Positions 1,175-63,714 of a stretch of DNA of 64,000 nt are shown piece by piece. Within the stretch, counting starts at the first letter, position 1, and each line of letters opens with the position of its first letter. This stretch comes from Botryllus schlosseri (lineage: Eukaryota), in the NCBI GenBank assembly GCA_051294905.1, contig CM119371.1:4776001-4840000 (forward strand), written 5' to 3'. The position numbers and the translations under genes were made by a program. The notes beneath the pieces were generated by a model. The model did no database searches. It was not told where the DNA came from and worked only from the letters and a program-made list of their open reading frames with translations.

Positions 1175-1344
1175 TGTTGAAACTCAAGAGAGGACGCCTT
1201 TGCTGTAGTTGGTTTTCCGAAATTCTAGGCGCCATCGTCATGCAGGTTATGGGCAGTTTCTGAACAATGCAGCCGTTGAAATACTTGTTCGCCGGCATTT
1301 CCTTTACAGGGGTCGATTTCTAACATTCCAATGAGAAGATCACA
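1175..1344 (-). pseudogene. PLK1-like pseudo-exon, end of kinase domain ('E')
   Basis: Minus strand reads CDLLIGMLEIDPCK..MPANKYFNGCIVQKLPITCMTMAPRIS..RRPLLSFN, matching PLK1 [44 protein letters not shown]. It is frameshifted. GTGAG donor at 1174-1170; the 5' boundary is approximate. Confidence 0.8.
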
Positions 1345-2030
1345 TATATAAACAACATCAAAGATAGTACCCAACATTTTCATAACATTGTTTGTTAATC
1401 GGGATTTGTGAATTCAAACTATAATACCAATCAAGATTCGTATTTGGATAGAAATAGATTCAAGTATCAGATAAGCAGATTTGCAGACTTGGACAACTAG
1501 AATATTTTCAGCTTCTCTGAATTAGACTAGAATTAGCATTACAGATACAGAGTTAATTTCCATATTAGAATATAATTATCATGATATCTACACAGTTATT
1601 TCCAAATTAGATTAACCTTAGAATGATAGTTACACATTTTTTTCCGCATTAGATTAGAAATAGAATAAAAGCTACACAGTTTTTTATAAAAACTGATTTC
1701 GTGAACCTTTGGACATGGAATCAAGTTCAGTCCATATCAAACCAGAGTTAATTCTCATAAGCATGAGGATGACAAATGTTTGTACAGGAAGTTTGTCTCG
1801 TTTTGCGCTTCACAGTTCTCCTGTAGCAATTTCAGGAAAACCAGAAATTAGATCAGAATTGAGAGTATAGAAACATTTGCCATATTATAATTAGATTTCA
1901 GACATTCGCTCCAATTAGTTTTATTAGATAACTCTGCTACGATTATTTAGTTGCCAAAGTCTGACTATGACTATCTAAAAGTACTTCGTTACTGATCACC
2001 TCTGACCTAGTACAATGCAAGCAATCTTAC

Positions 2031-2156
2031 CATGATATCTCTGTGACTGACCTTTCAGTCATGAAGATAACCGGCTCCAACCACAATCTGTTGCATGAAA
2101 GAACGAGCTTCTGGTTCTGTGATGGAGCGCCATCTTTTGTGAACTTCCATCAGCGA
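2031..2156 (-). pseudogene. PLK1-like pseudo-exon 'B' (hinge to HRD)
   Basis: 126 bp between cag and gtaag. Translates SLMEVHKRWRSITEPEARSFMQQIVVGAGYLHD*KVSHRDIM, versus PLK1 [42 protein letters not shown]. Contains an in-frame stop. Confidence 0.9.
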
Positions 2157-3392
2157 CTGACAATATAAATTAAAGGTCATCCGATTGACAGGATGAAATA
2201 CCAATGCCATTTGCTGCAACATCTAAAGCAGTGGTTCTCAACCTTTCTAAGCTAGCGGGCCAGTAAAATCTAACAGCAAATTTTTTGAACAAATGAACCT
2301 TCCAAATTGAAAACTTCATTCCATGCTGCCTTTTTGATATTTGACTACCTGACTGATTTGAAATTGAATTGAGTAGTAGGCTCCGAGTCGAGTATTCGCG
2401 TATCACTTATTATGATGCCATACCAGTATGGTTGATGAGAAAATTCAAATATGTGGACTGCCTTTTACACTGCTACAAACAATATACTGCCAGTCCTACA
2501 TCTTATTAAACACAATTTGTTTATTTTCGACCATGCCTATTTCATTGCACTATGTTGTCAATGCTGTGATTGATCACGACGTCACAGACATATCATTTCT
2601 AATAACGTGTATAATTTTGTACTGTATACTTCATATGCCGTGATACTGCTAATTGAGGTTTACAGCATTCAACAGTGGAAAATAGTATCGAAACTATAAT
2701 TCTCATGGATAAATTCACTCCCAGTTAATCTCAGTTTGTTTTTAATCATTTCACCTCTTGTGGCATGGAGCGTATCATTTCAGCACTATAAAAAATCGTT
2801 TTCACTACCAGACTCTGATTATTATGATTTACTCAATTCAGATTCGAATACTCAATTCATTGTGACAAGCCCCTACTGGTCGAAATTGTGCAACTAGAGA
2901 ATTTTCAGCTGTTAGAAACTAGATTAGAATTACAATAATAGCTAAACACGTTTTTTTTCAAATTTGATTAGAATTACAGTGATAACTACACCCTACACAA
3001 GTCTTTCCACTTTAAATTATAATTATAATTACTCATTTATTCAAAGAAATTGTACAAAAATACGGTGTCAGTTCATATCACATCAGGGTTTCTTCTCATA
3101 AGCACGACAATAGCAAATGTCTGCACATGAAGCTTGGCTCGTTTCGTACGATACAGTTCTCGTGTAGCATTTTAGGAACACCAGACATTACATTAAAATT
3201 AAACTGCGGACGTACCGTAAACGCATTGACAAATCAAACTCTCACAAGATTACCAATATTTGGCTCCATTTAGGTTGATTAGACAAGAAGTATGTAGTTG
3301 TCCAAAGTCTGCCAGTAATGAACATTACAGAGCTGATGCAATTGCGCAACACTTTGAGAAACATTACAGTTGTATCAAGAAAATGCTTTTAC

Positions 3393-3532
3393 CCTTCTTT
3401 TGCACAACTCGCGAACGATGTCGACAAAATCCTCGTCTTGGAAAAATCCGTGAAATCCAACGACATGCTCGTGATTGGAACTGCGATGGAGACTCATCTC
3501 TCGGCACATTTTCTATTTCTGACGATCATTTC
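3393..3532 (-). pseudogene. PLK1-like pseudo-exon 'A' (alphaC to ELCKRR)
   Basis: [44 protein letters not shown] followed by a gtaa donor, versus PLK1 [44 protein letters not shown]. Confidence 0.9.
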
Positions 3533-4187
3533 CTGAAATCGAGACTCGTACAAATCACCAATCTAGTTCGGTGGCGAGAAACTAACTATGTCTTTCTCTG
3601 ACTAATTCTATTTCTAATTATTCTCTTTTTCTCTTGAGCTACTCTCTCGTTTCACCAGACAGCATTGTTGCCTCCCAATGTCAATCTCCATAACAATGAA
3701 AAATTCAAGGCTGTTTGCGGGAGTTCCAGGGCCACGAGCGGAATAAAATTAATAGTTTCGTACTCAGTGCAGAGTCAGCTTTCGATTGATACCCGTTTTA
3801 CCAAATTTGCTGCTCGGCAAGCCGTTCAAAAATGACTGTCAAATTGCCTGTAGCCAAATGGAAATTGTGACGCGATACAATTTCACTGAGGCGTGAGATT
3901 TTCCTGTGTCGACACCATATAGGACACTATGGTTATGCACTAAACAGTTCTCCTGTAGCATTTTCAGAAAAAAAACAGAAATTAGATTAAAATTACAATG
4001 GGAGAAACATTTGACAAATTAGATTGGAATTAGATTACCGGCATTTTGCGATTGCCATATCTAATGTGACTTCTAGAAATTTTTAGTTGACCAGATCCGT
4101 CACTAATGAACTGAGAGAACTGATGGAATTATGACCAACAGTGTAATACACACTAAATTTGTAAAAATAACAAGGAAAACCTTTTAC

Positions 4188-4336
4188 CCGTCTTTTGCAA
4201 ATTCGAGAACGATGTAGACAAAATCTTTGTATTCGAAAAATCCGTGAAATCCTACGACGTGCGTGTGATTCACAATGCTATGGAGAAGGACCTCTAGACA
4301 TATTTTGCCTTTATGATGCTCATTCACGAGTAGTAC
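4188..4336 (-). pseudogene. PLK1-like pseudo-exon 'A', second copy
   Basis: cag|[45 protein letters not shown](frameshift)CKRR|gtaa; 149 bp. Confidence 0.9.
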
Positions 4337-4417
4337 CTGAAATTCACACGACATTAATGCTTGTAATCAAAGCGCGACCCATTATAAGTGCGCCGAAAAT
4401 ATCGTACTGGGTACTGC

Positions 4418-5840
4418 GAAATATCAGTATCAGCCACGAGGGAAAAGATATCGGCAATGATGTCACAGCATGGTAGTAAGGAGTCAGAGAATTATCATAT
4501 GCGACTGTTACACTGGGAATATTAATATGTTTTTGTATTTTATAAGTGTCCGGATGCATCCTTTCTAATTTATTTCATGTCCTAGCATAGAAATGACTGT
4601 GAAGCCGCTCTATTTTTGAAATGTTATCAAGCTAGTAGAATATCGAAGTTATGGGCGAAGGTGCTATGGGTAACGGTTCTATCGGCATTGGCTTAAAATC
4701 CCATATTAGTCATACTCTAGCTATAATAAGCATTCAAGAATGGCAATTTACAATATTATCAAAAAATGGCATTGATGCATGCGACAAATATAATCAGTCG
4801 CCTACTGGGTACTGATATAAGACTTGAAGAGAAATATCGGTATCAGCCACGAGGGAAAATATATCGGCAATTTCCATGATGTCACAGCATGGTAGTAATG
4901 AGTCAGAGAACTATCATATGCGACTGCTACACTGGAAATATTAATATATTTTTATATCTTATAAGTGTCCGAATCAGGGCTGTGGAGTCGGAGTCTGGGT
5001 AATTTTCGCTTGATGGAGTCGGAGTCGTGAAAACTATAATAGCCGGAGTCGGAGGGAAAATAATGACTGGACTTGGACTCGGAGTTTGTGAGATTGACCC
5101 TGACTTCGACTCCGACTCCAACTTCTCTATCATGAAAACATTTGCTTTTAAAAAATTTTCAATATAATTTTTATGTACCACCAATCACTGTTATTAATAA
5201 ACATACAGATAAGGTGCGGCCAGCCCATGGCACGCAGGCTAAATTTGGCACACGAGAAGGTTAGGTGTGGCCTGCGAGGTAATTCTCGAAATTATTTATG
5301 AAATCAGGTACAATTGCTTGATTAAGTACATATAGAAAATATTCTTTTCTTTCACAAATCCATCAAATCGAACGACTTGTTTGTTGCTCAACCTGCTATG
5401 GAGACTGGTCTCTTGACACATTTTTTCTTTACGAGGCTTATTCCCTAGAAGTGCCTGAAATGAACGCCAGATTAATGCTTGCATTTATTGCCCTGCCCAT
5501 GATAGGTTTGCCAATAACACCGCATAGATATCACAAAACATATCGGCATCGGCTATGAGAGGCAAAAAATATCGATAATTTCTGCGCGGGCGCAACGTGG
5601 TCACAGACACCTCGCGACTGCTACACAGGAAATATTGATAGCCTCCTTATATCTTACAAGTGTCCATATGCAGACTTTCTAGTTTATTCCATGTCCAGGC
5701 ATAAAAATGACTGTGAAGCTGTTACATTTTTTAAAATATGGCATAATCTAGAAGAATATTGAGGTATCAATTTCATCGGTATTGGCTCAAAAATCCGAAG
5801 TCGGGCTAGCTCTAGTTATAAAAAGCATGTAGAAATGGCA
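4418..5840. repeat. Local direct repeats of an intronic module (three partial copies)
   Basis: 4418-4552 and ~4830-4971 are near-identical (atcagccacgagggaaaa..gatgtcacagcatggtagtaa..ataagtgtccg). A more diverged copy lies at ~5530-5840. Confidence 0.7.
4975..5120. mobile_element. Truncated hAT-like end with GGAGTC subterminal repeats
   Basis: Begins CAGGGCTGTGGAGTCGGAGTC, followed by several GGAGTC/GACTCC motifs. No partner end or TSD found. Confidence 0.5.
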
Positions 5841-7115
5841 AATTTCAAGTTCTTTCCCACATTTGTTTTCACAAGAGTATTTACAAAATTATATTAGTAC
5901 AGGTGAAAAATACATTAGCATTCACACATATTCTATAGTGCCAATAAAGACGACTCAATTTTGGCACATTTTAACAAGCGAAAGCTTGTTTTCTTCAGAT
6001 TTCAGTAAGTTTAATACATTTGGCAAATTCGCCTTTGCCAAGAAATGGACCTCGCTTGTATGGTTCCCAGTAGAGTCATCACACAATTAATTCAGAGATC
6101 TCTTTCGTACTTTTTCAGACATAATTGTGAAATCAAATCCAAATCAATCTGCGAAATGAAATATCGTAAATTGACATGCTGGCAGCAGATTTCCACAAAC
6201 TACTGGATGTTTAAACTCCACAAGTAAATCAGAACGAACGACATTTGAAAATCAGAAACTAACAAAAACACAACTCAATGGATTTGATTCCAAAGCAGCT
6301 CATTAATTATATTTTATCAGAATCAGATAGGCTTTCCACATGAGCATCAGTACAAAATTACTGAAGAATCAGACAGACAAAACTACCACTATACAGGATA
6401 AACTAAGCAATTACTAGCTAGCAATGACTAAAAGATCTTCAAGGAAACAAAAACTGATCACAGCGACATTCAAGAAATGTAGAAGTCTTGTTAAAAAATC
6501 TTGTACATCAATACTCAAAATATGTAGAACAATAGTTGTCTGTTTCATATTAGCCAGTGTTAATGCAATAGGTTGCATGAGTATCATAACATGCACATGA
6601 AAAATATGCGAGCTCATACAGAATGATAGCCAGAAAGATGTAGTAATACGTTCACTCTTCAAGGCAATCACTTAGCACTGCTAGCAGCGAAACAAAGCTG
6701 AGTTAGCTACATCATGCACGACTCAAATCACTCAAGTACTCGATCATGTCCAGCTCCAGTTGTTTACTTGAAATATACACAATTCGGCAACTCTACAAAT
6801 TTGCAACTCTTTCAGATTCGATTAGTCACCAAGTATGCCTTCTTACATTAGCAGATTGTTGATGTGACTGATCATGTTCTAGGCAAAAATGAGTTTTTCA
6901 TAGGAAGAATAACGGTACTGGAGGTTATTTCGAATTCTTCCGACCTTTTTTCACTTGATCGAGACTTATCAAACTTTCGAACTCATCTCAACATGTTAAT
7001 CATTGAGGATATGATGCTTGATGTTAACCGTTGCAGGAAGTTTCGCAATCATGATTTTTGATACCAGCATGTAGACGCATATAAAGATTGCAGTTAGTAA
7101 ATGCTTTTCCACATA

Positions 7116-8042: not shown

Positions 8043-9164
8043 CTAATTTTTGATACCAGCATGCATCTTAATATGTTCTTTGAGGTAGCCCGACCGAGTG
8101 AATGCTTTACCACACATATCACACATATGATTTTTGATCCCAGCATGCATATCCATATGACGCTTGAGGGTACCCTTCTCAGTGAATGCTTTACCACACA
8201 TAGCACATGTATGATTTTTTATTCCAGCATGCATATCCATATGAAGCTTGAGAGTACTCTTATGAGTGAATGCTTTACCACATATAGCACATTTATGATT
8301 TTTGATTCCAGCATGCATCTCCATATGTTCTTTTACGTGGCCCTTCTGAGCGAATGCTTTCCCACATATATCACACGCATGATTTTTGATCCCAGCATGC
8401 ATATCCATATGAAGCTTGAGGGTACCCTTCCCAGTGAATGATTTACCACACATAGCACATGTATGATTTTTTATTCCAGCATGCATATCCATATGAAGCT
8501 TGAGAGTACCCTTATGAGTGAATGCTTTACCACATATAGCACATTTATGATTTTTGATTCCAGCATGCTTATCCATATGTTCTTTTACGTGGCCCTTCTG
8601 AGTGAATACTTTACCACATATATCACAAACATGGTTTTTGATCCCAGCATGCATATCCATATGACGCTTGAGAGTACCCTTGTGAGTGAATGATCTACCA
8701 CATATAGCACATTTATGATTTTTGATCCCAGCATGCATATCCATATGACGCTTGAGTGTACCCTTGTGAGTGAATGATCTACCACATATAGCACATTTAT
8801 GATTTTTGATTCCAGCATGCATCTCCATATGCTCTTTTACGTGGCCCTTCTGAGTGAATGCTTTACCACATATATCACAAACATGATTTTTGATCGCAGC
8901 ATGCATCTCCATATGTTCTTTTACGTGGCCCTTCTGAGTGAATGCTTTACCACATATATCACAAACATGATTTTTGATCGCAGCATGCATCTCCAGATGT
9001 TCTTTTACGTGGCCCTTCTGAGTGAATGTTTTACCACATATATCACAAACATGATTTTTGATTCCAGCATGCTTATCCATGTGAAACTTGAGGGTACCCT
9101 TCTCAGTGAATGATTTCCCACACATATCACAAACATGATTGTTGATGCCAGCATGCATATCCAT
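8043..9164 (-). CDS. Residual open frame with 13 complete C2H2 fingers (HAGIKNH linkers)
   Basis: ORF track 8043..9170 (first ATG at 9164) has 28-aa/84-bp repeats C-x2-C-GK-x-F-x5-L/V-x2-H-x3-H. Whether it is expressed after the upstream hAT insertion is unknown. Confidence 0.5.
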   Translation of the reverse strand: MDMHAGINNHVCDMCGKSFTEKGTLKFHMDKHAGIKNHVCDICGKTFTQKGHVKEHLEMHAAIKNHVCDICGKAFTQKGHVKEHMEMHAAIKNHVCDICGKAFTQKGHVKEHMEMHAGIKNHKCAICGRSFTHKGTLKRHMDMHAGIKNHKCAICGRSFTHKGTLKRHMDMHAGIKNHVCDICGKVFTQKGHVKEHMDKHAGIKNHKCAICGKAFTHKGTLKLHMDMHAGIKNHTCAMCGKSFTGKGTLKLHMDMHAGIKNHACDICGKAFAQKGHVKEHMEMHAGIKNHKCAICGKAFTHKSTLKLHMDMHAGIKNHTCAMCGKAFTEKGTLKRHMDMHAGIKNHMCDMCGKAFTRSGYLKEHIKMHAGIKN

Positions 9165-9204
9165 ATGCAACTTCAGGGTACACTTCTGAGTGAATGCTTT
9201 ACCA

Positions 9205-10518
9205 CAGGGGTTCTCAACTTCCCTTGTATAACGGGCCGCATTTTAACGGCAAAAGAAGCTGCGGGCCGCAGAACGTAATTACCATGTATTTGTGGGCTAC
9301 TATGAAATTAAGGCTACTGTAGCCTATTTACCAGTCGTATGCGGGCCTTAACCCTTTCACGAAAGAACCGAATTCTCTGCTTCAAAGCGTGAACGAGCAA
9401 GTATAAAATTACGGTCACTTTTTCGTAACAGAGGCCATTTTCACATTGAGTTCTCAGTGATATAAGAAGAAGTCTGGCGTTCGGGTTCATTTCTGAGCAA
9501 ACCAATCAACCCTTCTCTTTTCATTCCATAGCGGGGGCCGCTTCCCCATTTGTCACATAAGTAAGCTTTGTCAAGTTGATGTTTTTCGCTGGTTACCCTC
9601 CCACGTTTGCCCAGCCAGCATTTCCTCTAGAAATATGCACCCAGATAATTAGCTGTGGAATGTCAGTGGAGTCGGTGAATTCGTCCAATGCTAGGCTAAA
9701 GTAATCTACGCGGAAACGTATTTCAGAACATGCGATAAAAGATCGACTGACATTGCTGTTACTCATTTGGTCACGGTTGAATCAGACAACTGTAGCTTCG
9801 AAATATGTCGGGTAATGTTTTCATTACTGTTAAGTTTCGGAAACAGCGAATACTCGCACAATTTTATTGAAATCACACCTTAGCTAGCAGATTTCTTGGG
9901 CTTAGCGATATTCCCAGCAATTTTGAACGATGTGTCTCCAACGTCGTCGGCAATTTTACAATGCTTCCAAATATGGATTGCTGGGCTTGACACCTAGCTG
10001 GCAACATTTTTCTAAGATCAGGTGATATGTATAACTCCAGACGAAACTCTCGTGGTATAATTTTAAGCTTCATCGCTTCAAAGCTTACGAAAACTGTTTT
10101 TCGACAAATATGACACATCGGATTTCCATTTATATCTGAGAAAGCAAATTCATTGTTCCACGCAGGGTTACAAACCAAGTGTTCGCCGTTTAATTTCCCA
10201 TTCCTAGTTCTTGTTTCTGATCAAACACTCTTTAATAAATTTACCACGTAGCGGGATTCTCTTTAACCAGAGTCCAACCGAATACAAATTCAAAACAATA
10301 ACAATCTAAACTTGAGCATATATCAAGAAACCAGAACACATCAAAAATGAGTAATCAAACGAAACGGAGACGGTGCGATAAGATAGCTAAGCAGCTAAAT
10401 TAATATGTAACAATATCGTGTCAGAAATAATTGCGTTCATGATGAAAGGTGTCGCGGGCCGCAAAATAAACCTCTGTGGGCCGCATGCGGCCCGCGGGCC
10501 GCGGGTTGAGAACCCCTG
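9205..10518 (-). mobile_element. hAT (Buster/Charlie-type) internally deleted transposon
   Basis: TIRs CAGGGGTTCTCAAC and a perfect 8-bp TSD CTTTACCA. Minus-strand transposase remnants: NPAWNNEFAFSDINGNPMCHIC, KLQLSDSTVT and YFSLALDEFTDSTDIPQLIIWV (first catalytic Asp region). A sister copy lies at 53204-54573. Confidence 0.93.
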
Positions 10519-12361
10519 CTTTACCACATACATCACATTCAACATTTCTGATGTCAGCATGCATAATAAGATGCTTGAGATTACTATTCCCAGTAAACGT
10601 TTTCCCATACATATCGAATCGGCGTTCTTTCAAGTGATCAACAGTTAATACTGGATCCACAGAATGCTTTTCTTCAAGACACTAGAGATGCGACCCGCAG
10701 ATTTTCATCATTTCAGCATATAAACGTTGTTCAATTATAGTATGGATACATCTGGAATGCACAAGAGAGTAGAACTATTTCAAACAAAGAGCATTATAAG
10801 ATTGTAGAAAGAGCAATCATGATACCGGGATAGAGTGCAACATACAAAACTATCGATAGCATGGAAATGACTTCAGAAATGAGAGAGTAGATTATGAACA
10901 TTGTAATGTACCGGTAGTCTTATTGTTTCATTTAGTAGGACATCATCAATAGAACTATTGGATTGGTATATCAAGTTTTGATCATTTTAGTAACAAATCA
11001 TTGATAACACAAGAAAAAAACACAATGACTAATGACAATAGCGCACTTCGGTGCATATTTGCAAATCAATTAGAGAAATTTTCCAAGAACCATCAAAATG
11101 TGTACCTGTGACCATGAACATTGAGCAGCTTCAATGAATTTGCCCTGAAGCAGTTTTTCAGTAATAAAGTTCACAATTAACAGTGCTGCTTTTTACTTTT
11201 ATATAGGTTGAAAAAAAATTTTTTCTAGCTACCGTACTTTTCCATGTCCAATGCGCAATATTTTCCTGATTTTTTGTCCAAAATCGGGAGTGGGTATTAT
11301 GCATGGCTACAGCAAGCCTCGAAAAAATCTTTTTCGAAATATAACTTGAAATCACACCTTTCTTCGTGTTTGTTTCAATTGCGCACCACATTCAGCCATA
11401 ACGCCCCGTAATTCGTATTATTAGTGTGACGTGTTGACAATTAGCGAGAAGCCTGTTGCCAATTACCGGTACTGTCTGCGCTGCACAACGGTTAGCGGAT
11501 CAACTGTTCAGTTGGTTGGCCGTTTGTACGCGACGAAATTAGGCCATTTGATTGCAGCACGCGCAGGGGCGTATCTAGTCGGGAAAAAACGGGGGGTACC
11601 TTTAGAATAGGGGGGTGTTTTTAAAAGGAGAGTTTGTTCCTAGTTCTAACCGATTGAGCAGCTTAAATGTATGCAGAAATGCAGATATTACCATGTTCAG
11701 ATAATCTTACTCTTGTTTGTGACTTCTTCATTCGCATATACAAAACTAAGTACAACTGAACATAACATTGTAACCCGTAAGCGAGGATAACAGCATAAAG
11801 AGAGACAGCAAGGTATCTTGACCTTAATTAACAAAGCGAGGATGTTATCACGAAAGTGCGCACCGATCATATTACAACACATTGGTAGATCTCTCCATTT
11901 TGCGCTCATGTACGAACACTCGAACAGTGAAGATACACAAATGAATGTTTTCGTTTGTGTCAATTGTTCAGCCTGTTTTTGCACATGATCTGGATTAATT
12001 TTGTTCTAAATCAATATGATATCTACTGCCTGCCATGATTTTGGGGTGTGGAGATGTTAAATACCAATTAACGCTTGAGCTTGTGCGATTACATCACGTG
12101 AATAACAGTGGCCCGGCGCAGGCTTAGGCTCGCATTCAAAATGCAGTCCTAAATGCGTTTGCGGTGCAAAAGTAACAATTCCGAACTGTCGGAACAAAGA
12201 CTATAGCTTCGCGTTATTACAACATTACGTTGAACATTGATGTAGAACTATCACGTGCCTCAATCGCATCTGTAATAGGTGTCGTGTGCAAGATGTCGCT
12301 GGCTTGAACTATCGCTTCGCGGGCCTCGCAGGCTTTGGCTATTATCTGCTATCGTTTAGAC

Positions 12362-13071: not shown

Positions 13072-13079
13072 GTTTAGAC

Positions 13080-13367: not shown

Positions 13368-16300
13368 GTTTAGAGACAATGCCGTTAAGCGTATGATTAT
13401 GTCATGATTGTTCAACACTGACATCGCAAAACACAATGACATCGACTACTAAAACATAACTATTCATGTACTGCGAATGCAGGGTGCGTACTATACATGA
13501 GTACATGCTTTCCCTCAGAATTTTCACAACATTTTAAGGATGCGTATTGCGTATTATACATTGGGGCATACTATATCCGGAAAATTACGGTATTTGTGGC
13601 TTGTCGTTCCTGTCAGCAGGGCATGGTATGGTATGGAACGTTGATTTTCCATACTTCATACTTGCCTTACTCTCTCCATACCATACTTGCAATTTTCTAT
13701 ACCATACCAACATTGTTTCATACCTTACTTGATAGTTGATACATATTCCATACTTTCAAATACTGCAATATCATAGTAAATTACCTTTTCTAGCACCTGT
13801 ATTATGCTATTTCTAGTGTAATTATTGCGAATCTAATTCCTGGTGATAGTAGATACAGAGTGTGCTTTGGTGAGGTTTAGTTCACGGTGAGGTGTCGTGT
13901 ACGTCTACAGCTTCTGCGAGCAAAATGAGATAGTCAGCGGTTCGTTATCTAGTAGGACCCTCCATAAGAATATCATCGCATGTCCGATACATTGGCATTA
14001 GGCACATGCAAGTTTGAAGTAAAAATTAGCACAATAATTAATAATACAGGCGCACCCACAAAATATCACATCTGCAGGTGATGAATGCTGCAACGATCTG
14101 CGCGATTATTAGTAGAGTATTTAGTTGAGGTTAGCGTGGCGAGATTTTCAAACTATATCCAACGAACTCTCTATAATCCTAATGCGAGAGCGTTTGAAAT
14201 ATGACCCATAGGATACCTTGGTATGTAAATAGTGTAAATGTGACGGACAATGTTTCAGAAGAAATATAATTAAATGATCAATCACATTGAGCTATTAGTA
14301 CATTGCAGCATGATTGCTGGTAAGCTGTCGTCATTCAAGGAATGAGGTGCCGTAGTTAGTGTAGCCTACCTTACTGATTATTGCATAACATGATAGATTA
14401 TGCTCGGAGACGCCGTGTCTAGTAGAATATTGGATCAACCTTACTGTTGTCATTATTGACCTCTCTATATGGAAATGAAAGGTCCTCTAATGTATCAGAC
14501 TGAGTCTAACTATATTCGCGATTACGAGACAAAACGTCGTTGAACATATGCTACCTTGGTTTTGCGCTCGCAGAATAACTGTTGTCTAAAATTTTTGTGT
14601 AGCCTGTGCAATAGATCGTCAATCGACTGTGGCCCTTGGCTGAAAAGGTTGACCAACCCTGCACTAATCAGACCAACATGCCGGTAATATACTTCCAATC
14701 TAATTTCTGAAATATTTCTTTACTCCAATTCAGATTCTAATCGAATGTGTGGAATGTTTCTATGCTCTAATCTGCCATCTGGTTTATTGAAAATGCTACA
14801 GGAGAACTGTATCGTGTGAAACGAGCCAAGCTAACTGCACACACATTTGACATTCTCTTGCTTATGGAAAGGAACTCTGGTTTGCTATGACGTGAAATAG
14901 ATTCGACTTTGGAGTTCACACGAATTCAATAATTTTAATTCTAAACTAATTTGAAGAAAAAATGTGTAGCTATCTAGCTAATTTTGAACAGGTGAAAGAT
15001 TTCTAGTTTTCCAAGTCTGCCTTAAACCCATTATACAAGCCATCAATTTTAGCTTATCTGTCGGAAACACTTACTAGTGATGGTTATATTGTTGTGGATA
15101 GTAAAGTCCCCAAAGGCCGTAAATTGATACCAACACCGGCAACAAGCGATAACAGGACTAAACCTCAAGATTTTAGCACACATTATACACAGAGTGGACA
15201 GTACCTGAGGATCCTAATTTTAAAATTGGTTCTCTTTTTATAGTCCTCATTTCATTTTGAACTTTTGCAATCACAAGATGGAAGAATTTTGTATGGCATT
15301 TGACCATAATTATGAAAATACATAATGAAATGCTACATATATGACTTTTTGAATTCCCGGCGCCATTAAATATGATTTCAACACATTTCATTTCAATTTT
15401 AGACCTCGTAACTTGATGCCCGCATCAGTTCCCCCATTTGTAATCCAGTAGATCTGAATCGAGTATTAGCCTTCGAGTCAAGTTGGGTAGGGCCTATTCG
15501 AATATCCTTCATTGTGACGACATAACTATAAGAAAGATGTGTCAAGTTCAGATATGTACCGTTTAGGCCTATGCGATCACGAAGTGTTTACATACCAATC
15601 TACTTCATAAAACTAGTATATAATTTTATAGGAGATACAATTTGTACGTTCTTCAATGACTCCATGAACTTGGGTATTTTTCATAGTGCTCTAAAAACTG
15701 CCAGAGTTATTCCAATTCACAAAAAAGGCAGCAAAAATTCAATGTCTAACTACCGTCCCATTTCAATTATGTCAAACCTTTCCACTTTATATGAGAAATT
15801 GCGAGATTTGAGGCTCAAGAAATTTTTTGAATTGCAGTCAGTATTCACTCGACATCCCAATTTGGCTTTAGATCGGGTCATAACAATAACCATGCTACCC
15901 TTTCAATTGTGACAAATTACTACAAAATTATTAAACAAAAAAGAGTTGGCTGTAGTATATTGATCTTCGAAAAGCTTTTGATACTGTGAACCACAAAATA
16001 CTGATACGAAAGTTAGAGCATTATGGAATTGAAGGGATTGCCAAGTCCCTACTCATGAACTACCTGGCAAACCGTAAGCAGTTTGTTAAATTGGGTCTAT
16101 CAAAATCAGTAGAAATGGAAGTTGGGTGTCGAGTGCCACAGGGCTCAGTGTTAGGACCGACCCTCTTTTTGATCTACATCAATGATATTATCAACTGTTC
16201 CTCATTTTATACTACAATGTTTGCCGATGATACCCATCTTTTTCCTTCATCCGATACTATAAGCAACCTACAAAGTACTGTGCAGAGTAAACTTGTAATA

Positions 16301-26005: not shown

Positions 26006-26027
26006 TAACTAACTAACTAACTCTCTC

Positions 26028-31658: not shown

Positions 31659-31669
31659 TTATTACTACG

Positions 31670-52955: not shown

Positions 52956-53150
52956 CTTGGAATCTATTCCTGAACAAGATGGAGGTGAAGATCGGAGATC
53001 TCGTAGAGATGTCATCCTGGCAACCAAAGTCGACTTTGACGGCGAAACAAAAGAATACTTTTTGTGGCACACTCAAGTATATTGCCCGGAAGTTGTTGGA
53101 AAGAATGGGCACAGTTTCGATGTGGAGACCTGGTCGCTGGGCTGTGTTTT
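52956..53150 (+). pseudogene. PLK1-like pseudo-exon 'C' (DFG, T-loop, APE)
   Basis: Frameshifted NLFLNKMEVKIGD..LATKVDFDG..KNTFCGTLKYIA/PEVVGKNGHSFDVETWSLGCV|gtgag, versus PLK1 [62 protein letters not shown]. Confidence 0.92.
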
Positions 53151-53203
53151 GTGAGTATATAAGAACATTCATGTGAAACTTTATTAAACGGGAATAGCTA
53201 GGG

Positions 53204-54573
53204 CAGGGGTTCTCAACCCGCGGGCCGCATGCGACCCGCAGACGTTTGTTTTGCGGCCCGCGACATCTTTCACTATGAACGCAATCACTGCTGGCACGGT
53301 ATTTTCACATAATAATTTAGTCACTTTTAGTTCTCTTATCGCACCGTATCTGTTTCGTTTAAATACTCATTCTTTGATGTGTTCTGGTCTCTTGATATAT
53401 GCTCGAGTTTAGATTGTTATCTTTTTGAATCTGTATATGTCAGGACTCAGGTTTAAGAGATTCCCGCTTCACTCACTGCGAATGGTTTGGACAGAGACAA
53501 GAACAGGGGAGGGGAAATTAAACGGTGAAAACTGGGTTTGTAACTCCGCGTGGAACAATGAAATTGCTTTCTCAGATATAAATGGAAAACCGATCAGTCA
53601 TATTTGTTGAAGAACTGTAGCGTAGAAGATTAAAATGATACCACAAAACATTTTTCCGGATTTACATATCGCCTGTTCTTAGAAAAAACGCTGCTAGTTG
53701 GTGTCAAGCCCAGCGATTCATATTTCGAGGCATTTTTAAAATTGCCTACGATGTTACAGACGCATTGGAATATCGCTAAACCCAAGAAATCTGCTAGAGA
53801 AGGTGTGATTACAATAAAACTTTAACATATTGTGCGAGTATTCGCTGTTTCCGGAACTTAGCAGCGAGGACAACATTACCTGACAAATTTCGAAGCTACA
53901 GTTGTCTGATTCAACCGCCGTGACCAGAAGAGTAGCAGCAATGTCAGTTGATCTTTTATCGCATGTTCTGAAACACGTTGCGGCGTAGACTAATTTAGCA
54001 TAGCATTGAACGAATCCACCGACTTCACAGACATTGCATAGCTAATTTTCTGGGTGCATTTTTTCTGAGTGGACATATTTGCATAAGAAATACTGGAAAG
54101 GCAAACGTGGGTAGGGGAAATGCTCAGAAATGACCCATAAACGTCAGACTTCTTCTCATATCACTGAGAGCTCAAAGTGATAATGGCCTCTGTAACGAAA
54201 AAGTTAGCACAATTTATACTTGTTCGCTCACGCATTGAAACAGAGAGATCCGTTGTTTGGTGGAAGGGTTTGAAGGTACATATACCGACTTGGCAATGGA
54301 TGCAATGCACGATCCATGAAGGAATTTATACTTGCGCCGCAGGAAGATACATATTCTCACAAAAACAGCAATTGTAAACTTACGAATGCTGTCCATTAAT
54401 GCTTTAGAATGCATAAAAATTGACTAAACGCCCGTATACGGCTGGTAAATATGGGCTACAGTAGCCCAAATTTAACAGTAATCCACAAATACATATTAAT
54501 AATGTTCTGCGGCACGCGGAGTCTTCTGATGTTAAAATGCGGCCCGTTATACGTGGGAAGTTGAGAACCCCTG
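53204..54573 (+). mobile_element. hAT (Buster/Charlie-type) internally deleted transposon
   Basis: TIRs CAGGGGTTCTCAAC; perfect TSD AGCTAGGG. Same family as 9205-10518 (WNNEIAFSDINGKPISHIC, LQLSDST, SIALNESTD). Confidence 0.93.
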
Positions 54574-54929
54574 AGCTAGGGTCTCAGGGTAAGGACTGGG
54601 AAAATTGGAGCATCTGAGTGATTTGATTCTGAATCCAGTATTAGCCTTTGAGTCGACTATCCGAGTATCACTTAATATGATGTCATAACAGTATAAATGA
54701 TGTGGGAAGCACAGATAGTACCTTTTACGCGGTCACAAATAGTATACTGTCAATTCTGCATCACATTGAATATTATTTGGTGTTGTTTCGACCGCACCTA
54801 TTTCATTGTACTCTGTTGCAATGCTGTGGGTAGATTACAACTTCACAGATATGTCATTCCATTAACTTGTGTGGCTTTGTACTGCATGTTTTGTATGCTC
54901 TGATACGATTAATAGACTATTACTATTTC

Positions 54930-55934: not shown

Positions 55935-56082
55935 GTGTTACTAATACAGAGACACAGAAGCACATATGTGACAAACATCATTTGCAGTACCGAATCATCG
56001 GATTTTCGTATGGCAGAATTGGAAGCTCAGCTTGAGAAATTGACCTATACCCATCCAAGATTGCAGTCAGCTATAAATATAG
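55935..56082 (+). pseudogene. PLK1-like inter-domain linker pseudo-exon 'F'
   Basis: cag|...STESSDFRMAELEAQLEKLTYTHPRLQSAINI|gt resembles PLK1 [27 protein letters not shown]. It has phase-1 ends and is frameshifted. Confidence 0.55.
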
Positions 56083-57023: not shown

Positions 57024-57148
57024 TCGCTGATGAAAGTTTACAAAAAAGACGCGCCATCACGGAAGCAGAGACTCGTTATTGCATGCAACAGATTCTGATT
57101 AACGTCGTTCATCTTCACGATTGTAAGATCATTGACAGAGGTATCAAG
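57024..57148 (+). pseudogene. PLK1-like pseudo-exon 'B'
   Basis: cag|SLMKVYKK/RAITEAETRYCMQQILINVVHLHDCKIIDRGIK|gtaa; 125 bp (1-nt deletion). Confidence 0.88.
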
Positions 57149-57750
57149 GTAAAAATTGTAGTGTAGTTGTCTAATAAAACTAATCAAGCGAATGCCTGTA
57201 ATCTAATTCTAATCTAATTTGTCCTAATTTTTTATGTTATCATTCTAATTTCTGGTTTTCCTGAAATTGCGACAGGAGAACTGTATCGTTCGAAACTAGC
57301 CAAACTCGATGTACAAACATTTGACATTTTCGTGCTTATGAGTATAAATTCTGATTTGATATGAGCTGAACTTCATTCGATGTCAAAGCTTTTGTCAATT
57401 CAGTAATTCTAATCTAATCTAATTTTCAAAAATCTGTAGCTAACATTGTAATATTCTGATTTGGGTAAAGCTACGTAGCTATAATTCTGATTCTATTCTC
57501 TAATATGGATAACAAAAACTTAGTAGCTGTGATTTCAATCCTCATCAAATTTGGAAAGCTGAAAATTTTCTAGTTGATCAAGTCTACAAATAGGCTTATC
57601 CTGATACTTGAGTCTCTTCCTATCGAACTACAGGAATAGTTTACTATTTCAAATCCAAATCTTAATTGCTATTATAATTTTAAATCCACAAATCATGATT
57701 CCCAAACAATCTCATAAAAATATGAGACTAGCTGTGATTTTATTACTATT

Positions 57751-57922
57751 TGTGATTTTGTCACTAGAATATTGGCATGCGACTAGTGCGAGCGAGCGAG
57801 TATTTCAATGGCTACATTTCACGGAAACTGCGCACAACCTGCTTGACCATGGCGTCCAGGTTCTTGGAAAGCCAACTACAGCGACCTCAATAGACTAAGG
57901 CGACCTCTATAGAGTTTGAACA
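57751..57922 (+). pseudogene. PLK1-like pseudo-exon 'E'
   Basis: DFVTRILACD*..SEYFNGYISRKLRTTCLTMASRFLESQLQ..RRPL*SLN|gtaag. Confidence 0.78.
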
Positions 57923-59057: not shown

Positions 59058-59723
59058 GTTATCAATGCAATCTCCTAAACGTTCTAGAAACAAATTTCTT
59101 TCGTGATAGCACACGATTCCACGTTGTTATTTCTATATGGAGTACATCATTTCTCCCCGCTGCTCGCATCGCTTCTGTACTGTGGGGCTCAGATTGATAA
59201 GGACATTACTACATTAAAATCTAAAAATGAAGTCTCATTGAATCGCACGTAGCGCGAAGAAAATTTCAAGATCAATTAAATCTTGCAAAGATTAATTAAT
59301 CTCTCAAAAATTAGGGAACCAATTCGTAAATTCAATTGTTATGTCGACGGCCGCCAACACATACTAATTGAATTTTGTGTACACGGCCGCACAAATTTTC
59401 TTCTACGGTTGGTTGACCACGCTTGCACTAGAACTATCCTTTAAAAATCCCCAACTAATAACTGATGATAAGAATTACTGAATTGTAAATGAGCTAAGAA
59501 ATATTGGAGATAGACTCGGCATTTCAATAGGACGGGGTTTCCAGTTTGAAATGAGAGGGCCCCGACTACACTATTCCTAGTAGTGATGATTCTTAGCTGA
59601 CTGCAAGCGCATCGCACTACAGATCACCGGTATCGTGATTGACGCAAAATGTGCAATTCGAACGAGAACTAGTCGGCCCTCACTTTTCAAAATTCGCGAC
59701 TAAAACTAGTATCTGAATTCCAG

Positions 59724-59861
59724 GCATTGCTCGTGAATGAGCATGAGAAAGACAAAATGTCTCTCCACCACAGTTTGGATCACAAGCCCGTCGGTGGATT
59801 TCACGGAATTTTTCAAGACAAGGATTTTGTCTACATCGTTCTCGAGTTGTGCAAAAGAAGG
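59724..59861 (+). pseudogene. PLK1-like pseudo-exon 'A' (open frame, 12-nt deletion)
   Basis: cag|ALLVNEHEKDKMSLHHSLDHKPVGGFHGIFQDKDFVYIVLELCKRR|gtaa. It lacks the four codons that include the alphaC Glu. Confidence 0.9.
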
Positions 59862-61260: not shown

Positions 61261-61740
61261 ATCTATAATGACGTAGTAAGAACTCGAGTACCATCTATAA
61301 TGACGTCATAGGAGTATGAAAGATGTAGAAAGTTTAAGTATGTTACCGCAAACAATATAATGCCAGTTGCACATCACAATCAAGATAATTTTGTATTTTT
61401 TTGACCACACCTATTTTATTACGCTTTGTGACAATACTGTGGGTTGATCACCACTCACAGATATGTCACCGATGCTTACAGCCTTCTATAGTGGGAATTA
61501 TATTCAAATCACTCGGGTTCTTCATTTCACCAAGACCTACATAGGACATGTCTATTATCAAATAGGCAGCATTACATGTAATTTTTGATTAGACAGGTTC
61601 ACCGATATGCTAAATTAATCGTCAAATTTGACCAGCTCGCTAGCTGAAATAGGTTGAAAATCTCTGATTGAGATGTGCCCGACAAATGATATTGTTGATT
61701 TCATTCGGGCAATCCAATTAGCTTTGATTTTTGTTGCTAG

Positions 61741-61866
61741 TCGCTGATGGAACTTCACAAAAGTCGGTAAGTTATCACAGAAGCAGAGACTCGTTATGAC
61801 ATGCATCAAATTCTGCTTGGAGTCGTTTATCTTCACAAAGGTAAGATCATTCACACGGATATAAAG
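61741..61866 (+). pseudogene. PLK1-like pseudo-exon 'B'
   Basis: tag|SLMELHKSR*VITEAETRYDMHQILLGVVYLHKGKIIHTDIK|gtga. Confidence 0.9.
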
Positions 61867-62245
61867 GTGAAATTTGGTTGAAGTCATACCGTTTGCACAA
61901 ACTATTGAATTTATTGAAATGTGCTACTGGTACTAGAACTAGACTTGGTCACTTTCCAGAATTTTCAACTAGTGCTAGAACTAACGACAATTAAGAATCC
62001 ACAACAGACTACTTAACTAACATATGAATTACTGAATTGTAATGAACTGAGAAATAAGAACATCACACAACAAAAAAAAAGGTATCACGATTTACACGGA
62101 ACGTGTTTCCTAGCTGTCCGACAACTAAACTTTTCAAATCCGCATTTACAACTACTAAAAAAGCAGTCTTTTGATGGCCTCCAACTAACTAGATTGGTAA
62201 TTTGTACAAGTCTTGTGTAACTAAATGCGGAATTTGTATTGACAG

Positions 62246-62426
62246 TTGAAGAATCTCTTCCTGAGCAACAACATGAAGATTGGAGATTTGGCCTAGCTAC
62301 CGAGGTCGACTTTGACATCCAAAGAAAGGACACGTTCTGCGGCACATCCAACAATATTGCCCCGGAAGTTTTACGGAAGTAAGGACACAGTTTCGAAGTG
62401 GACACCCGGTCGATGGGTTGTGTTAT
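62246..62426 (+). pseudogene. PLK1-like pseudo-exon 'C'
   Basis: cag|[59 protein letters not shown]|gtgag. Confidence 0.92.
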
Positions 62427-62944
62427 GTGAGTATGATGCAATATTGGGGTTTCAAGGTTCTTTGGTGTGGACATGGAAAATATCCCGCACCCGAGTAATT
62501 CGATTCTGAATCGAGTCGAGTATTTGAGTAGCATTCATGACAGCGTTAACAACATTATGAATGAAGTACAAAATTCAAATTTGTACCTTTTATGCGGCCA
62601 CAAAGGATATAGCGTCAGTTCTACATCATAGGAAAGATAATTTTGTGTTTTTGCGGCCGTGCCTAATCCATTGCACTTTGTGACAATGCTGCGAGTTGAT
62701 GAGCGTGAATTCATCTCGAAACTCTAATTCTCGTTGATAAGTTAACTCTACTGTCAAGGAGCGTATCATCTCAGTACTTGAAAAAATGATCTCTCGCTAC
62801 CCAGCTCGAACTATCAGAATTGATACTCAATTCACATTCGAGCACTTCAATCATTGTGCCAAACCCTATTGGAAATTTCTGATATTAAGAGTCACCTGCC
62901 CAACAAACATTTCTCTTGGTAACTCGATGCATGCTTTGCTTTAG

Positions 62945-63714
62945 TATACATTGTTGGCCGCTAATTTACCGTTTGAGGGCCAGAATGGACTCAAGTCAAA
63001 TTGTGTAAACGGCATGTGACTTGTGACTCGAAGATAGTTACTTGACTTGACTCGAGTCACGATATGATGATAATGACTTCATATGACTTGTGACTAGAAA
63101 ATAGTAACTTGACTTGACTCGAGTCAAAATATGCAATGACTTGATATGACTTGTGACTCAAAATAGTAACTTGACTTGACTTGAGTCAAAATATGCAATG
63201 ACTCGATATGACTTGTGACTAGAAAATAGTAACTGGACTTGACTCGAGTCAAAATATGCAATGACTCGATATGACTTGTGAGTAAAAAATAATAACTTGA
63301 CTTGACTCGAGTCAAGATATGCAATGACTCGATATGACTTGTGACTAGTAAATAGTAACTTGACTTTACTCAGTCAGAATACTTCTGAATATAAAATAGT
63401 AACTTGACTTGACTCTAGTCAAGATATACAATGACTTGTGACTAGTAAATAGTAACTTGACTTGACTCTAGTCAAGATTGGGAAAGACTTGAGATGACTT
63501 GTAACTTGAAGTCGACTTGATCCCAACACAGAATGTTATCTATTTACCCATCTTAACGACCTGCCGCTAAGCAAGTTGTGTCCACAGCCAGTTTTTGCAA
63601 GGCGACATACCTCAACAACTACCGACCATCTGCTTGACTATCACCATCACATTATCACAACACATCAACTCGAGACAACGTTCAATGGTGAGGTTTTCAT
63701 AATTCTACGACAAG
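62945..63714 (+). pseudogene. PLK1-like pseudo-exon 'D/E' split by a repeat element
   Basis: tag|YTLLAANLPFEGQN (cf. YTLLVGKPPFETS). After 63530 it reads ECYLFTHLN..FLQGDIPQQLPTICLTI (cf. [16 protein letters not shown]). The 3' boundary is approximate. Confidence 0.7.
62988..63530. repeat. 63-bp minisatellite of GACTTGACTCGAGTC units, probably a hAT subterminal region
   Basis: About 8 units gacttgactcgagtcaaaatatgcaatgactcgatatgacttgtgactagaaaatagtaactt. The end GACTTGATCCCAACAC matches, in reverse, CAGTGTTGGGATAAAGTC at 33653. Related motifs occur at 52242-52673. Confidence 0.85.

What the first reader, a model, noticed from the sequence alone, without database searches (positions are those of the whole stretch)
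1175..63714. Mirror-image cassette: upstream block, tandem ZNF gene, then an array of PLK1 pseudo-exons, on both strands
Seen: reading outward from the centre, both directions give the same order. First comes the duplicated block (22200-14690 minus / 31670-33650 plus), then a single-exon C2H2 array with an upstream acceptor (10751 minus / 44730 plus), then same-strand PLK1 exon remnants (4336-1175 minus / 47568-63714 plus). The two ZNF exon starts show weak similarity (ttgaacaacgtttatatgctga / ttgaataatcgtttttaagcaga; tcttgaagaa). Inference: the amplifying unit of this ZNF family includes a captured piece of the mitotic kinase gene, as a core duplicon or large mobile unit. I know of no described ZNF-PLK1 co-amplified cassette.
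Basis: partly seen in the sequence, partly recalled or inferred. Interest (0 to 1): 0.8.

Follow-up and report, generated by a model that had tools for sequence, protein, structure and literature searches.

The report
Decayed PLK1 gene-fragment arrays beside zinc-finger genes
Broken, intron-containing copies of part of a polo-like kinase 1 gene sit in arrays next to two unrelated-looking zinc-finger genes, which looks like ordinary duplication debris in a repeat-rich gene cluster and not a defined mirror-image cassette.

Summary
There are two C2H2 zinc-finger exons, 8046-9242 (-) and 44867-46057 (+). Each is followed on its own strand by PLK1-derived pseudo-exons: 6 pieces on the left (6105-1173) and 11 on the right (47568-63660). 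A 2-kb block also occurs in inverted copies.

The pseudo-exons keep their introns and splice sites and carry stops and frameshifts. They form scrambled head-to-tail units that are 61-82% alike. Public DNA runs of the same organism hold tens of copies at least 80% alike, for the PLK pieces and for ZNF2 with its flanks.

The two arms are not copies of one cassette:
- The ZNF flanks do not align (z between -0.6 and 1.0).
- The ZNF-to-PLK junctions differ (PLK exon 1 on the left, a truncated exon 6 on the right).
- The ZNF arrays are about 60% alike, with different linkers and different repeat periods.
- One apparent shared block is a hAT transposon that inserted twice independently.
- The "upstream block" is non-coding and carries interspersed repeats.

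Best reading: an unprocessed PLK1 pseudogene-fragment family, spread by DNA-level duplication as a passenger in a ZNF cluster. Genome-wide ZNF-PLK linkage could not be tested, because no genome is held.

The parts
5932..6105 (-). PLK1 pseudo-exon E1 (P0001 aa 11-68). The start codon region lies just upstream. It has 3 in-frame stops and a frameshift.
   Evidence: tblastn (E 3.5e-6); translations
5323..5457 (-). PLK1 pseudo-exon E2, copy a (aa 59-103), the most diverged copy
   Evidence: E 7e-6; alignment A2; identities
4193..4339 (-). PLK1 pseudo-exon E2, copy b (aa 59-107)
   Evidence: E 4e-14; Pfam Pkinase fragment; PDB PLK1 hits
3393..3521 (-). PLK1 pseudo-exon E2, copy c (aa 67-109), with one stop
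   Evidence: E 4e-15
2034..2159 (-). PLK1 pseudo-exon E3 (aa 109-150), with one stop
   Evidence: E 6e-11
1173..1307 (-). PLK1 pseudo-exon E6 (aa 269-313). E4 and E5 are deleted between it and E3, and interspersed repeat R1 lies in the gap.
   Evidence: E 1e-11; single HSP 812-2720 ~ 58282-56458
8046..9242 (-). ZNF1 C2H2 array (399-aa open frame, HAGIKN linkers, 84-bp unit x16, 252-bp higher-order period). This is the downstream part of an exon split by a transposon.
9200..10519 (-). hAT-like non-autonomous transposon inside the ZNF1 exon (TIR CAGGGGTTCTCAAC, 8-bp target duplication TGGTAAAG)
   Evidence: 74-83% alike to 53203-54578
10520..10681 (-). Upstream part of the ZNF1 exon (first fingers). 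An acceptor-like AG lies at 10751.
14724..22232 (-). Left copy of 'block D', in three pieces (14724-15597, 20360-21003, 21823-22232). The insertions that split it include a LINE RT at 15956-16381.
31638..33650 (+). Right copy of 'block D' (2 kb). It is non-coding and contains interspersed repeats R1 (33386-33640) and R2 (32603-32914).
44867..46057 (+). ZNF2 C2H2 array (397-aa open frame, HTGVKN/K linkers, 84-bp unit x11, 168-bp higher-order period). An acceptor-like AG lies at 44730.
47568..47645 (+). PLK1 pseudo-exon E6, 5'-truncated (aa 278-303), unit U1. About 450 bp of intron follows, shared with U3 and the left arm.
   Evidence: E 7e-4; alignment A1
48207..48331 (+). PLK1 pseudo-exon E2 (aa 68-109), unit U2, with a stop and a frameshift
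   Evidence: E 9e-9; A2
48507..50831 (.). Foldback transposon (arms 91% alike) inserted in intron 2 of U2
   Evidence: high depth
51719..51812 (+). PLK1 pseudo-exon E3 (aa 113-152), U2, frameshifted
   Evidence: E 4e-4
52961..53152 (+). PLK1 pseudo-exon E4 (aa 154-214), U2, frameshifted
   Evidence: E 5e-13; Pfam
53203..54578 (+). Second copy of the hAT-like transposon (target duplication AGCTAGGG). It is an independent insertion.
   Evidence: X1 mean word depth about 22,000 in bins 53339-54672
55971..56081 (+). PLK1 pseudo-exon E7 (aa 330-366)
   Evidence: E 1e-4
57032..57151 (+). PLK1 pseudo-exon E3 (aa 113-152), unit U3
   Evidence: E 2e-9; Pfam
57795..57884 (+). PLK1 pseudo-exon E6 (aa 275-304), U3. 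It has the same E4/E5 deletion and R1 element as the left arm.
   Evidence: E 6e-9
59721..59861 (+). PLK1 pseudo-exon E2 (aa 59-109), unit U4
   Evidence: E 2e-14; A2
61741..61869 (+). PLK1 pseudo-exon E3 (aa 110-152), U4, with one stop
   Evidence: E 4e-12
62287..62427 (+). PLK1 pseudo-exon E4 (aa 168-214), U4, with one stop
   Evidence: E 2e-16; PDB
63530..63660 (+). Weak PLK1 E5/E6 remnant (aa 257-299), U4
   Evidence: E 0.005; weakest piece

Best explanation
The window lies in a repeat-rich, duplication-prone zinc-finger gene cluster. The cluster carries the decayed remains of an unprocessed (intron-containing) copy of a PLK1-type gene.

That pseudogene was duplicated at the DNA level. Part of it, roughly exons 2-7, became head-to-tail units. 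These units were then rearranged by unequal exchange, deletions and transposon insertions. Larger pieces of the array were later copied elsewhere, giving tens of copies in the genome. The PLK pieces have no function and travel as passengers.

The two ZNF exons belong to different subfamilies, and each expanded its own finger array. They sit next to PLK arrays because both lie in the same amplifying region, not because a fixed ZNF+PLK module is the unit. The mirror order reflects an old inversion or inverted duplication of variable extent, or partly chance.

Shown: the identity, decay, intron retention, tandem junctions and multi-copy state of the PLK pieces, and the lack of flank homology. Inferred: the passenger role, the mechanism (non-allelic recombination and segmental duplication), and the order of events.
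For: PLK1 origin:
- 9 of 16 candidate proteins passed E<=0.001. All 9 are protein kinases, 8 with polo boxes, and the named ones are PLK1/polo.
- 17 tblastn pieces match PLK1. All left pieces are on the minus strand and all right pieces on the plus strand.
- In the PDB, PLK1 scores 45 bits against 31 for PLK2 and 23 for PLK3. A second piece scores 33 for PLK1 against 23 for PLK3.

Decay: the alignments show stops and frameshifts. No polo-box exon is present.

DNA-level copying: all five E2 copies share the acceptor cag|G and the donor AGG|gtaaaag. Three E6 copies share about 450 bp of the following intron.

Tandem units: the E6-to-E2 junction is shared, 47640-48003 ~ 57907-58293 and 48139-48336 ~ 59679-59866.

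Common descent across the arms: 812-2720 ~ 58282-56458 is one HSP that shares the E4/E5 deletion and the R1 element.

No arm-specific clustering: E2 identity between arms is 63-80%, within the left arm 61-73%, within the right arm 82%. E6 identity between arms is 76-77%, within the right arm 74%.

Multi-copy state: PLK positions have summed depth 84-375, against about 8.5-9 for identical single-copy-like contigs, and 2-22 variant contigs in X1 (up to 36 in X5).

Against a fixed cassette:
- Flank alignments have z = 1.0, -0.6 and -0.2, and 0 mirrored bases.
- The junction is ZNF1->E1 on the left and ZNF2->truncated E6 on the right.
- The block 9200-10519 ~ 54578-53203 is a hAT element with different 8-bp target duplications at its two sites.
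- The ZNF arrays are 58-62% alike and have 252-bp and 168-bp periods.
Against: - Two of two ZNF exons in the window have a co-oriented PLK array starting 1.5-2 kb downstream. That would be very unlikely if the two kinds of element were scattered independently.
- Paralogous contigs covering the ZNF2 body, the ZNF2 end plus flank, and the PLK units show similar divergence (83-88%), as co-duplication of a large block would give.
- The mirror anchors (block D inner end, ZNF arrays, E2a/U2-E2, E3/U2-E3) share x+y of about 53.6-54.2 kb. I estimate this has roughly a 1-in-several-hundred chance. It is unexplained.
- The summed contig depths are not true copy numbers, as itself warns.
- Only the right arm was laid against reads.
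- The ZNF-PLK spacers are short (about 1-1.5 kb once repeats are excluded), so a single deletion could have erased shared flank sequence.
Confidence: 0.5

Rival explanations
1. A defined module, [upstream block]-[single-exon ZNF]-[PLK1 fragment array], is the unit by which this ZNF family amplifies (a core duplicon or large mobile unit). The window holds two old copies of it in inverted orientation.
For: - The order and relative orientation are the same in both arms.
- Both ZNF2 with its flanks and the PLK units have tens of copies >=80% alike, with paralog pieces 83-88% alike for each.
- The anchors are spaced symmetrically, x+y of about 53.6-54.2 kb.
- Concerted evolution inside each ZNF array (86% higher-order repeats) could exaggerate the ZNF1-ZNF2 divergence.
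Against: - The flanks do not align at all in mirror orientation, although neutral PLK introns of the same arms still align at 65-77%.
- The junctions differ: E1 against a truncated E6.
- Block D has no conserved reading frame and contains repeats R1 and R2, which also occur separately elsewhere in the window.
- Block D copies are about 77% alike against about 71% for the PLK inter-arm blocks. That is only weakly consistent with a single event.
- Depth at the ZNF2 3' flank (430-1070) is 3-7 times that at the first PLK piece (134-156).
- Closer relatives of the right arm lie elsewhere, so the arms are not sisters.
- None of the listed ZNF2 homologues carries a kinase domain, and the best is 53% identical.
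Confidence: 0.25
2. Transposon-mediated gene capture. A DNA transposon (Helitron-like, or a Pack-type hAT, Mutator or CACTA element) picked up a genomic piece of PLK1 with its introns and spread it. The copies accumulated in ZNF clusters, which tolerate insertions.
For: - The exon-plus-intron structure fits a genomic DNA copy.
- The unit copies show star-like divergence with no clustering by arm.
- Tens of dispersed copies are closer to each unit than its neighbours in the window are.
- The region is packed with active DNA transposons: hAT and a foldback element.
Against: - The units are joined head to tail through a shared E6-intron-to-E2-intron junction. That is what tandem duplication gives.
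- I saw no terminal inverted repeats, target duplications or Helitron-type ends where unit homology stops, near 808, 48003 and 58293. This was by inspection only.
- The left arm keeps exon 1 with its start codon, as a whole-gene duplicate would.
- The outer ends of both arrays lie outside the window.
Confidence: 0.15
3. Chance juxtaposition or assembly artefact. The ZNF genes and PLK arrays are unrelated neighbours, or the inverted arrangement is a mis-join in a repeat-rich region.
For: - Every bin of the right arm contains high-copy sequence, which makes assembly difficult.
- Mirror homology is limited to three kinds of element.
Against: - The arms are only 60-80% alike, so they are not a foldback read artefact.
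- X1 contigs identical to the window exist at single-copy-like depth, at 54615-54903 and 57277-57576.
- ZNF-PLK adjacency occurs twice, both times co-oriented.
Confidence: 0.08

Closest known systems
Unprocessed (duplicated) pseudogenes and gene-fragment-bearing segmental duplications, such as primate 'core duplicons' (recalled from general knowledge; no paper read here)
   Same: Genomic copies that keep introns and splice sites, decayed by stops and frameshifts, multi-copy, mixed with transposons, and travelling with neighbouring genes.
   Different: The source gene is PLK1. The units form scrambled head-to-tail arrays. No transcribed fusion gene or conserved core was shown. Copy numbers are only rough estimates from contig depths.
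Lineage-specific tandem C2H2-ZNF gene clusters, such as KRAB-ZNF clusters on human chromosome 19 (recalled)
   Same: Single large exons encoding many fingers, internal higher-order finger repeats, many paralogues, and a repeat-rich setting.
   Different: No KRAB or other N-terminal domain was seen here. The linkers are unusual (HAGIKN, HTGVKN). One gene is split by a hAT insertion. No close homologue was found in the protein database (<=53% identity).
Transposon gene capture (Helitrons, Pack-MULEs; recalled)
   Same: Amplified host-gene fragments that include introns.
   Different: No transposon termini were found at the unit ends. The units are joined in tandem through a shared junction. Exon 1 with its start codon is retained in one arm.
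Large inverted duplications and palindromes
   Same: Mirror order and orientation of three kinds of element around about 27 kb, with similar distances from the axis.
   Different: The arms do not align outside those elements. Identity is 60-80% with no homogenisation, and the insertions are arm-specific.

Membership tests
PLK1-derived sequence | Kinase-domain similarity that is best to PLK1 and weaker to other polo-like kinases | tested here: met
   PDB: PLK1 45 bits against PLK2 31 and PLK3 23; PLK1 33 against PLK3 23.
Functional PLK1 gene | Uninterrupted reading frame across all kinase exons plus the polo-box domain | tested here: not met
   Stops and frameshifts in most pieces. Exons are out of order and repeated. 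There is no significant match (E<0.1) beyond aa 366, so no polo-box exon. P0001 itself has polo boxes at aa 388+.
Processed (retro) pseudogene | No introns, contiguous cDNA-like sequence | tested here: not met
   The exon pieces are separated by 0.4-3.4 kb. The ag|G acceptor and G|gtaaaag donor are conserved, and intron sequence is shared.
C2H2 zinc-finger gene | Tandem zf-C2H2 domains in an open frame | tested here: met
   zf-C2H2 E 2e-75 and 7e-73. ZNF2 is open for 397 aa. The ZNF1 exon is split by a transposon.
Inverted segmental duplication (mirror cassette) | The arms align along their length in inverted orientation, including unique flanks | tested here: not met
   0 mirrored bases in the ZNF 3' flanks, the ZNF-to-block-D interval and the centre. 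Local alignment z = 1.0, -0.6 and -0.2.
Co-amplified ZNF-PLK duplicon | The same ZNF-to-PLK junction in different copies | tested here: not met
   On the left, ZNF1 is followed by E1 at 6105. On the right, ZNF2 is followed by a truncated E6 at 47568. The spacers do not align.
Co-amplified ZNF-PLK duplicon | Genome-wide co-occurrence and co-orientation of PLK arrays with ZNF exons | not testable with these tools
   No genome is held. The one read-laying run was used on the right arm, and its contigs are too short to link the elements.
Transposon-captured gene fragment | Transposon termini and target-site duplications bounding the captured piece | tested here: inconclusive
   Nothing was evident where homology ends in A1. 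This was inspection only, and the outer array ends lie outside the window.
hAT transposon (the 1.3-kb block 9200-10519 / 53203-54578) | Terminal inverted repeats and 8-bp target-site duplications; high copy number | tested here: met
   TIR CAGGGGTTCTCAAC / GTTGAGAACCCCTG, with duplications TGGTAAAG and AGCTAGGG. X1 mean word depth is about 22,000 in bins 53339-54672. No transposase domain was found.

The most novel reading that the evidence does not exclude
The PLK1-derived array is an integral 3' module of an amplifying ZNF unit. Each new ZNF gene copy in this lineage would then carry a stretch of mitotic-kinase pseudo-exons downstream. Those pseudo-exons could be read through into ZNF transcripts, or give rise to small or antisense RNAs related to PLK1. 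That would make a previously undescribed ZNF-PLK1 duplicon family.
Probability: 0.15. Interest if true: 0.55.

Novelty: new member of a known kind. Interest (0 to 1): 0.3.

Why it matters
If the passenger reading holds, this is a routine example of how duplication-prone ZNF clusters drag neighbouring pseudogene debris along. It is mainly useful for annotation: the kinase-like hits here should not be called genes, and ZNF1 is interrupted by a transposon.

It would matter more if the assembly showed that PLK1 fragments systematically accompany ZNF genes. That would define a lineage-specific duplicon and raise the question of whether PLK1-related transcripts arise from it.

Three full-text literature searches found no description of amplified PLK1 fragments of this kind. 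One returned 0 papers, one returned 3 and one returned 5. I judged all of these irrelevant from titles and abstract starts only.

Tried and rejected
Searches took all 244 ORFs >=40 aa in 1-5200 and 47000-64000. One search took 146 of the 206 ORFs >=55 aa in 5200-47000, those up to about 35.1 kb. The remaining 60 ORFs, between 35 and 47 kb, were not scanned.
- Three look-ups of earlier scan findings returned nothing.
- The ZNF2 homologue search gave only generic C2H2 proteins, <=53% identical. None carried a kinase domain, and the organism did not emerge from it.
- A search with the 97-aa ORF holding E6 (near lengths) found nothing: 4 candidates, 0 significant.
- No RNA holder was listed for the stretch. 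In RNA run X23, 6976 of 7025 laid reads lay only partly on the stretch, and 4348 were under 90% alike. I draw nothing on expression of this locus from that.
- No tRNA-like genes were found, so no tRNA-SINE label can be given to R1-R3.
- Block D as a shared coding 5' exon was rejected: all six frames are equally conserved, and all carry stops.
- The block 9200-10519 ~ 53203-54578 as cassette homology was rejected: it is a hAT element with separate target duplications.
- I did not run the representative-protein HMMER job, structure prediction or complex prediction. They would not bear on the question.

Full report
**What is in the window.**
Stop-to-stop ORF listing finds two long C2H2 arrays, 8046-9242 (-) with 399 aa and 44867-46057 (+) with 397 aa. 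Both score strongly as zf-C2H2 (E 2e-75 and 7e-73). The window is 36-45% G+C in 2-kb windows and full of internal repeats. No genome is held for it, and earlier scan notes are empty.

**The PLK pieces are real and derive from a PLK1-type gene.**
- Pfam scans of all 244 ORFs >=40 aa in 1-5200 and 47000-64000 gave weak Pkinase fragments. Three were on the minus strand on the left and five on the plus strand on the right.
- Searching the 60-aa ORF 4187-4366(-) against longer proteins returned 9 of 16 candidates at E<=0.001. All were kinases and 8 had polo boxes. The named ones are PLK1/polo of Styela clava, Bemisia tabaci and Thrips palmi.
- tblastn with these proteins maps 17 pieces (P0001 numbering).
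  - Left, minus strand: E1 aa 11-68 (6105-5932), E2 three times (5457-5323, 4339-4193, 3521-3393), E3 (2159-2034) and E6 aa 269-313 (1307-1173).
  - Right, plus strand: E6 (47568-47645), E2 (48207-48331), E3 (51719-51812), E4 (52961-53152), E7 aa 330-366 (55971-56081), E3 (57032-57151), E6 (57795-57884), E2 (59721-59861), E3 (61741-61869), E4 (62287-62427) and a weak E5/E6 (63530-63660, E 0.005).
- A relaxed search adds nothing significant between 6.2 and 47.5 kb, and no polo-box exon anywhere.
- PDB searches rank PLK1 (45 bits) above PLK2 (31) and PLK3 (23) for E2, and PLK1 (33) above PLK3 (23) for E4.
- Upstream of E1, the start-codon region of PLK1 is recognisable but frameshifted.
- Most pieces carry stops or frameshifts.

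**They are DNA-level, intron-containing copies arranged as scrambled tandem units.**
- Five E2 copies share the acceptor (cag|G) and the donor (AGG|gtaaaag).
- Three E6 copies share the donor and about 450 bp of the following intron.
- The E6-intron-to-E2-intron junction occurs twice: 47640-48003 ~ 57907-58293 and 48139-48336 ~ 59679-59866. That is the signature of head-to-tail duplication.
- The left segment 812-2720 aligns as one HSP with 58282-56458 (68% over 1987 columns). Both lack E4/E5 and both hold the same interspersed repeat, R1, between E3 and E6. They therefore descend from one already-damaged unit.
- Copies do not cluster by arm. E2 identity is 63-80% between arms, 61-73% within the left arm and 82% within the right arm. 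E6-plus-intron identity is 76-77% between arms and 74% within the right arm.

**The family is multi-copy in the organism.**
One stretch (44001-54000) was used to find runs. The right arm (44001-64000) was then laid at >=80% likeness on two DNA-contig runs, one RNA raw-read run and one presumed RNA contig run.
- In X1, 149,632 contigs were laid.
- X1 contigs identical to the window have depth 8.5-9.2.
- Positions inside PLK pieces have summed depths of 84-375, with 2-22 variant contigs in X1 and up to 36 in X5. Examples are 375 with 22 contigs at 57823, 284 with 17 at 62353, 201 with 7 at 61764, 182 with 7 at 56003 and 156 with 3 at 47632.
- The ZNF2 exon start (44739-44825: depth 325-591, 10-26 contigs) and its 3' flank (46219-46733: depth 430-1070, 8-17 contigs) are multi-copy too.
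- The listed paralog pieces are 83-88% alike: ZNF2 at 45542-45843 and 45892-46327, and PLK at 56969-57413, 61664-62144 and 62259-62563.
- The tool warns that summed depths are not copy numbers, so "tens of copies" is an order of magnitude only.
- Each right-arm unit has closer relatives elsewhere than in the left arm. The two arms are therefore not sister copies.

**Test of the mirror cassette.**
Mirrored alignments between the arms cover 3255 of the left 6.2 kb of PLK array, the ZNF arrays (58-62%, family level) and block D (1.9 kb). They cover 0 bases in the ZNF 3' flanks, 0 in the interval between ZNF and block D, and 0 in the centre.

Smith-Waterman scores against shuffles:

| Region compared | Score | Shuffle mean | z |
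|---|---|---|---|
| ZNF 5' flank and exon start | 15 | 13.3 (max 18) | 1.0 |
| ZNF 3' flank | 14 | 14.9 | -0.6 |
| Block D to ZNF | 17 | 17.2 | -0.2 |

- The ZNF-PLK junctions differ: ZNF1 is followed by E1, and ZNF2 by a truncated E6.
- The arrays differ in linker (HAGIKN against HTGVKN/K) and in higher-order period (252 bp against 168 bp, each 86% matched).
- One block looked like shared sequence next to ZNF1: 9200-10519 ~ 54578-53203, 74-83% alike. It is a hAT-like transposon with terminal inverted repeats and different 8-bp target duplications. TGGTAAAG lies inside a ZNF1 finger, and AGCTAGGG lies just after PLK E4. Its right-arm copy lies in bins of very high depth.
- Block D has no conserved reading frame. 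It contains repeats R1 and R2, which also occur separately in the PLK introns and elsewhere. Its left copy is split by insertions that include a LINE reverse transcriptase.
- Depth drops 3-7-fold from the ZNF2 3' flank to the first PLK piece. This argues that most close ZNF2 paralogues do not continue into this PLK unit.

**What still favours some real association.**
- Two of two ZNF exons have a co-oriented PLK array 1.5-2 kb downstream. Independent scattering of a family of tens of arrays in a large genome would hardly give this.
- Paralog divergence is similar for ZNF2 and for the PLK units.
- The anchors share x+y of about 53.6-54.2 kb, even though the intervening sequence does not align and the insertions are arm-specific. 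I cannot explain this beyond coincidence.
- The ZNF-PLK spacers are short, so one deletion could have erased shared flank sequence.

**Conclusion.**
The best-supported reading (about 0.5) is an unprocessed PLK1 pseudogene-fragment family, amplified by tandem and segmental duplication as a passenger within a duplication-prone ZNF cluster, with no fixed ZNF+PLK unit. An artefact or pure chance is unlikely (about 0.08).

Literature searches for amplified PLK1 fragments found nothing relevant. They returned 0, 3 and 5 papers, judged from titles and abstract starts only.

The finding is a new example of a known kind of genome feature and is of modest interest. The decisive test is a genome-wide intersect of PLK fragments with ZNF exons on the assembly, which these tools could not run.

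Noticed in passing
9200-10519 and 53203-54578: A hAT-like non-autonomous transposon (TIR CAGGGGTTCTCAAC, 8-bp target duplications) splits the ZNF1 exon inside a finger. Removing it together with one copy of the duplication would rejoin an intact finger. A second copy sits just after PLK E4.
   Followed up: yes
48507-50831: A 2.3-kb foldback element with about 900-bp arms that are 91% alike, and two 132-133-aa ORFs on the minus strand with no significant Pfam match (best E 0.0089, below threshold). It looks like the youngest insertion in the right PLK array. The bins are high-depth in the DNA runs.
   Followed up: partly
30868-31018 and 31259-31533: Head-to-head arrays of 22-23-bp repeats that contain TTAGGG / CCCTAA (telomere-like motif), immediately inside the right copy of block D.
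   Followed up: no
27671-28060; 63017-63381: A 41/82/123-bp tandem repeat near the centre of the window, and a 63/125-bp tandem repeat inside the last PLK unit.
   Followed up: no
15956-16381 (+): A LINE reverse-transcriptase fragment (RVT_1, E 4e-18) inside the insertion that splits the left copy of block D.
   Followed up: partly
22232/31638; 7645-9207/44975-46054; 5457/48207; 2159/51719: The mirror anchors lie at nearly equal distances from about 26.9 kb (x+y 53.6-54.2 kb), although the sequence between them does not align and the arm-specific insertions differ. Unexplained.
   Followed up: partly
57823 (PLK E6 of unit U3): In RNA run X23, all 18 reads over this position have the first mate on the + strand and none on the - strand, and all carry the non-window letter. 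They come from an expressed paralogue or from the real PLK1 mRNA, not from this locus.
   Followed up: no
7106-7397, 11221-11459, 37922-38163, 63761-64000: A short interspersed repeat (about 240-290 bp, 68-84% alike) present four times. One copy lies between ZNF1 and PLK E1, and one lies after the last PLK piece.
   Followed up: no
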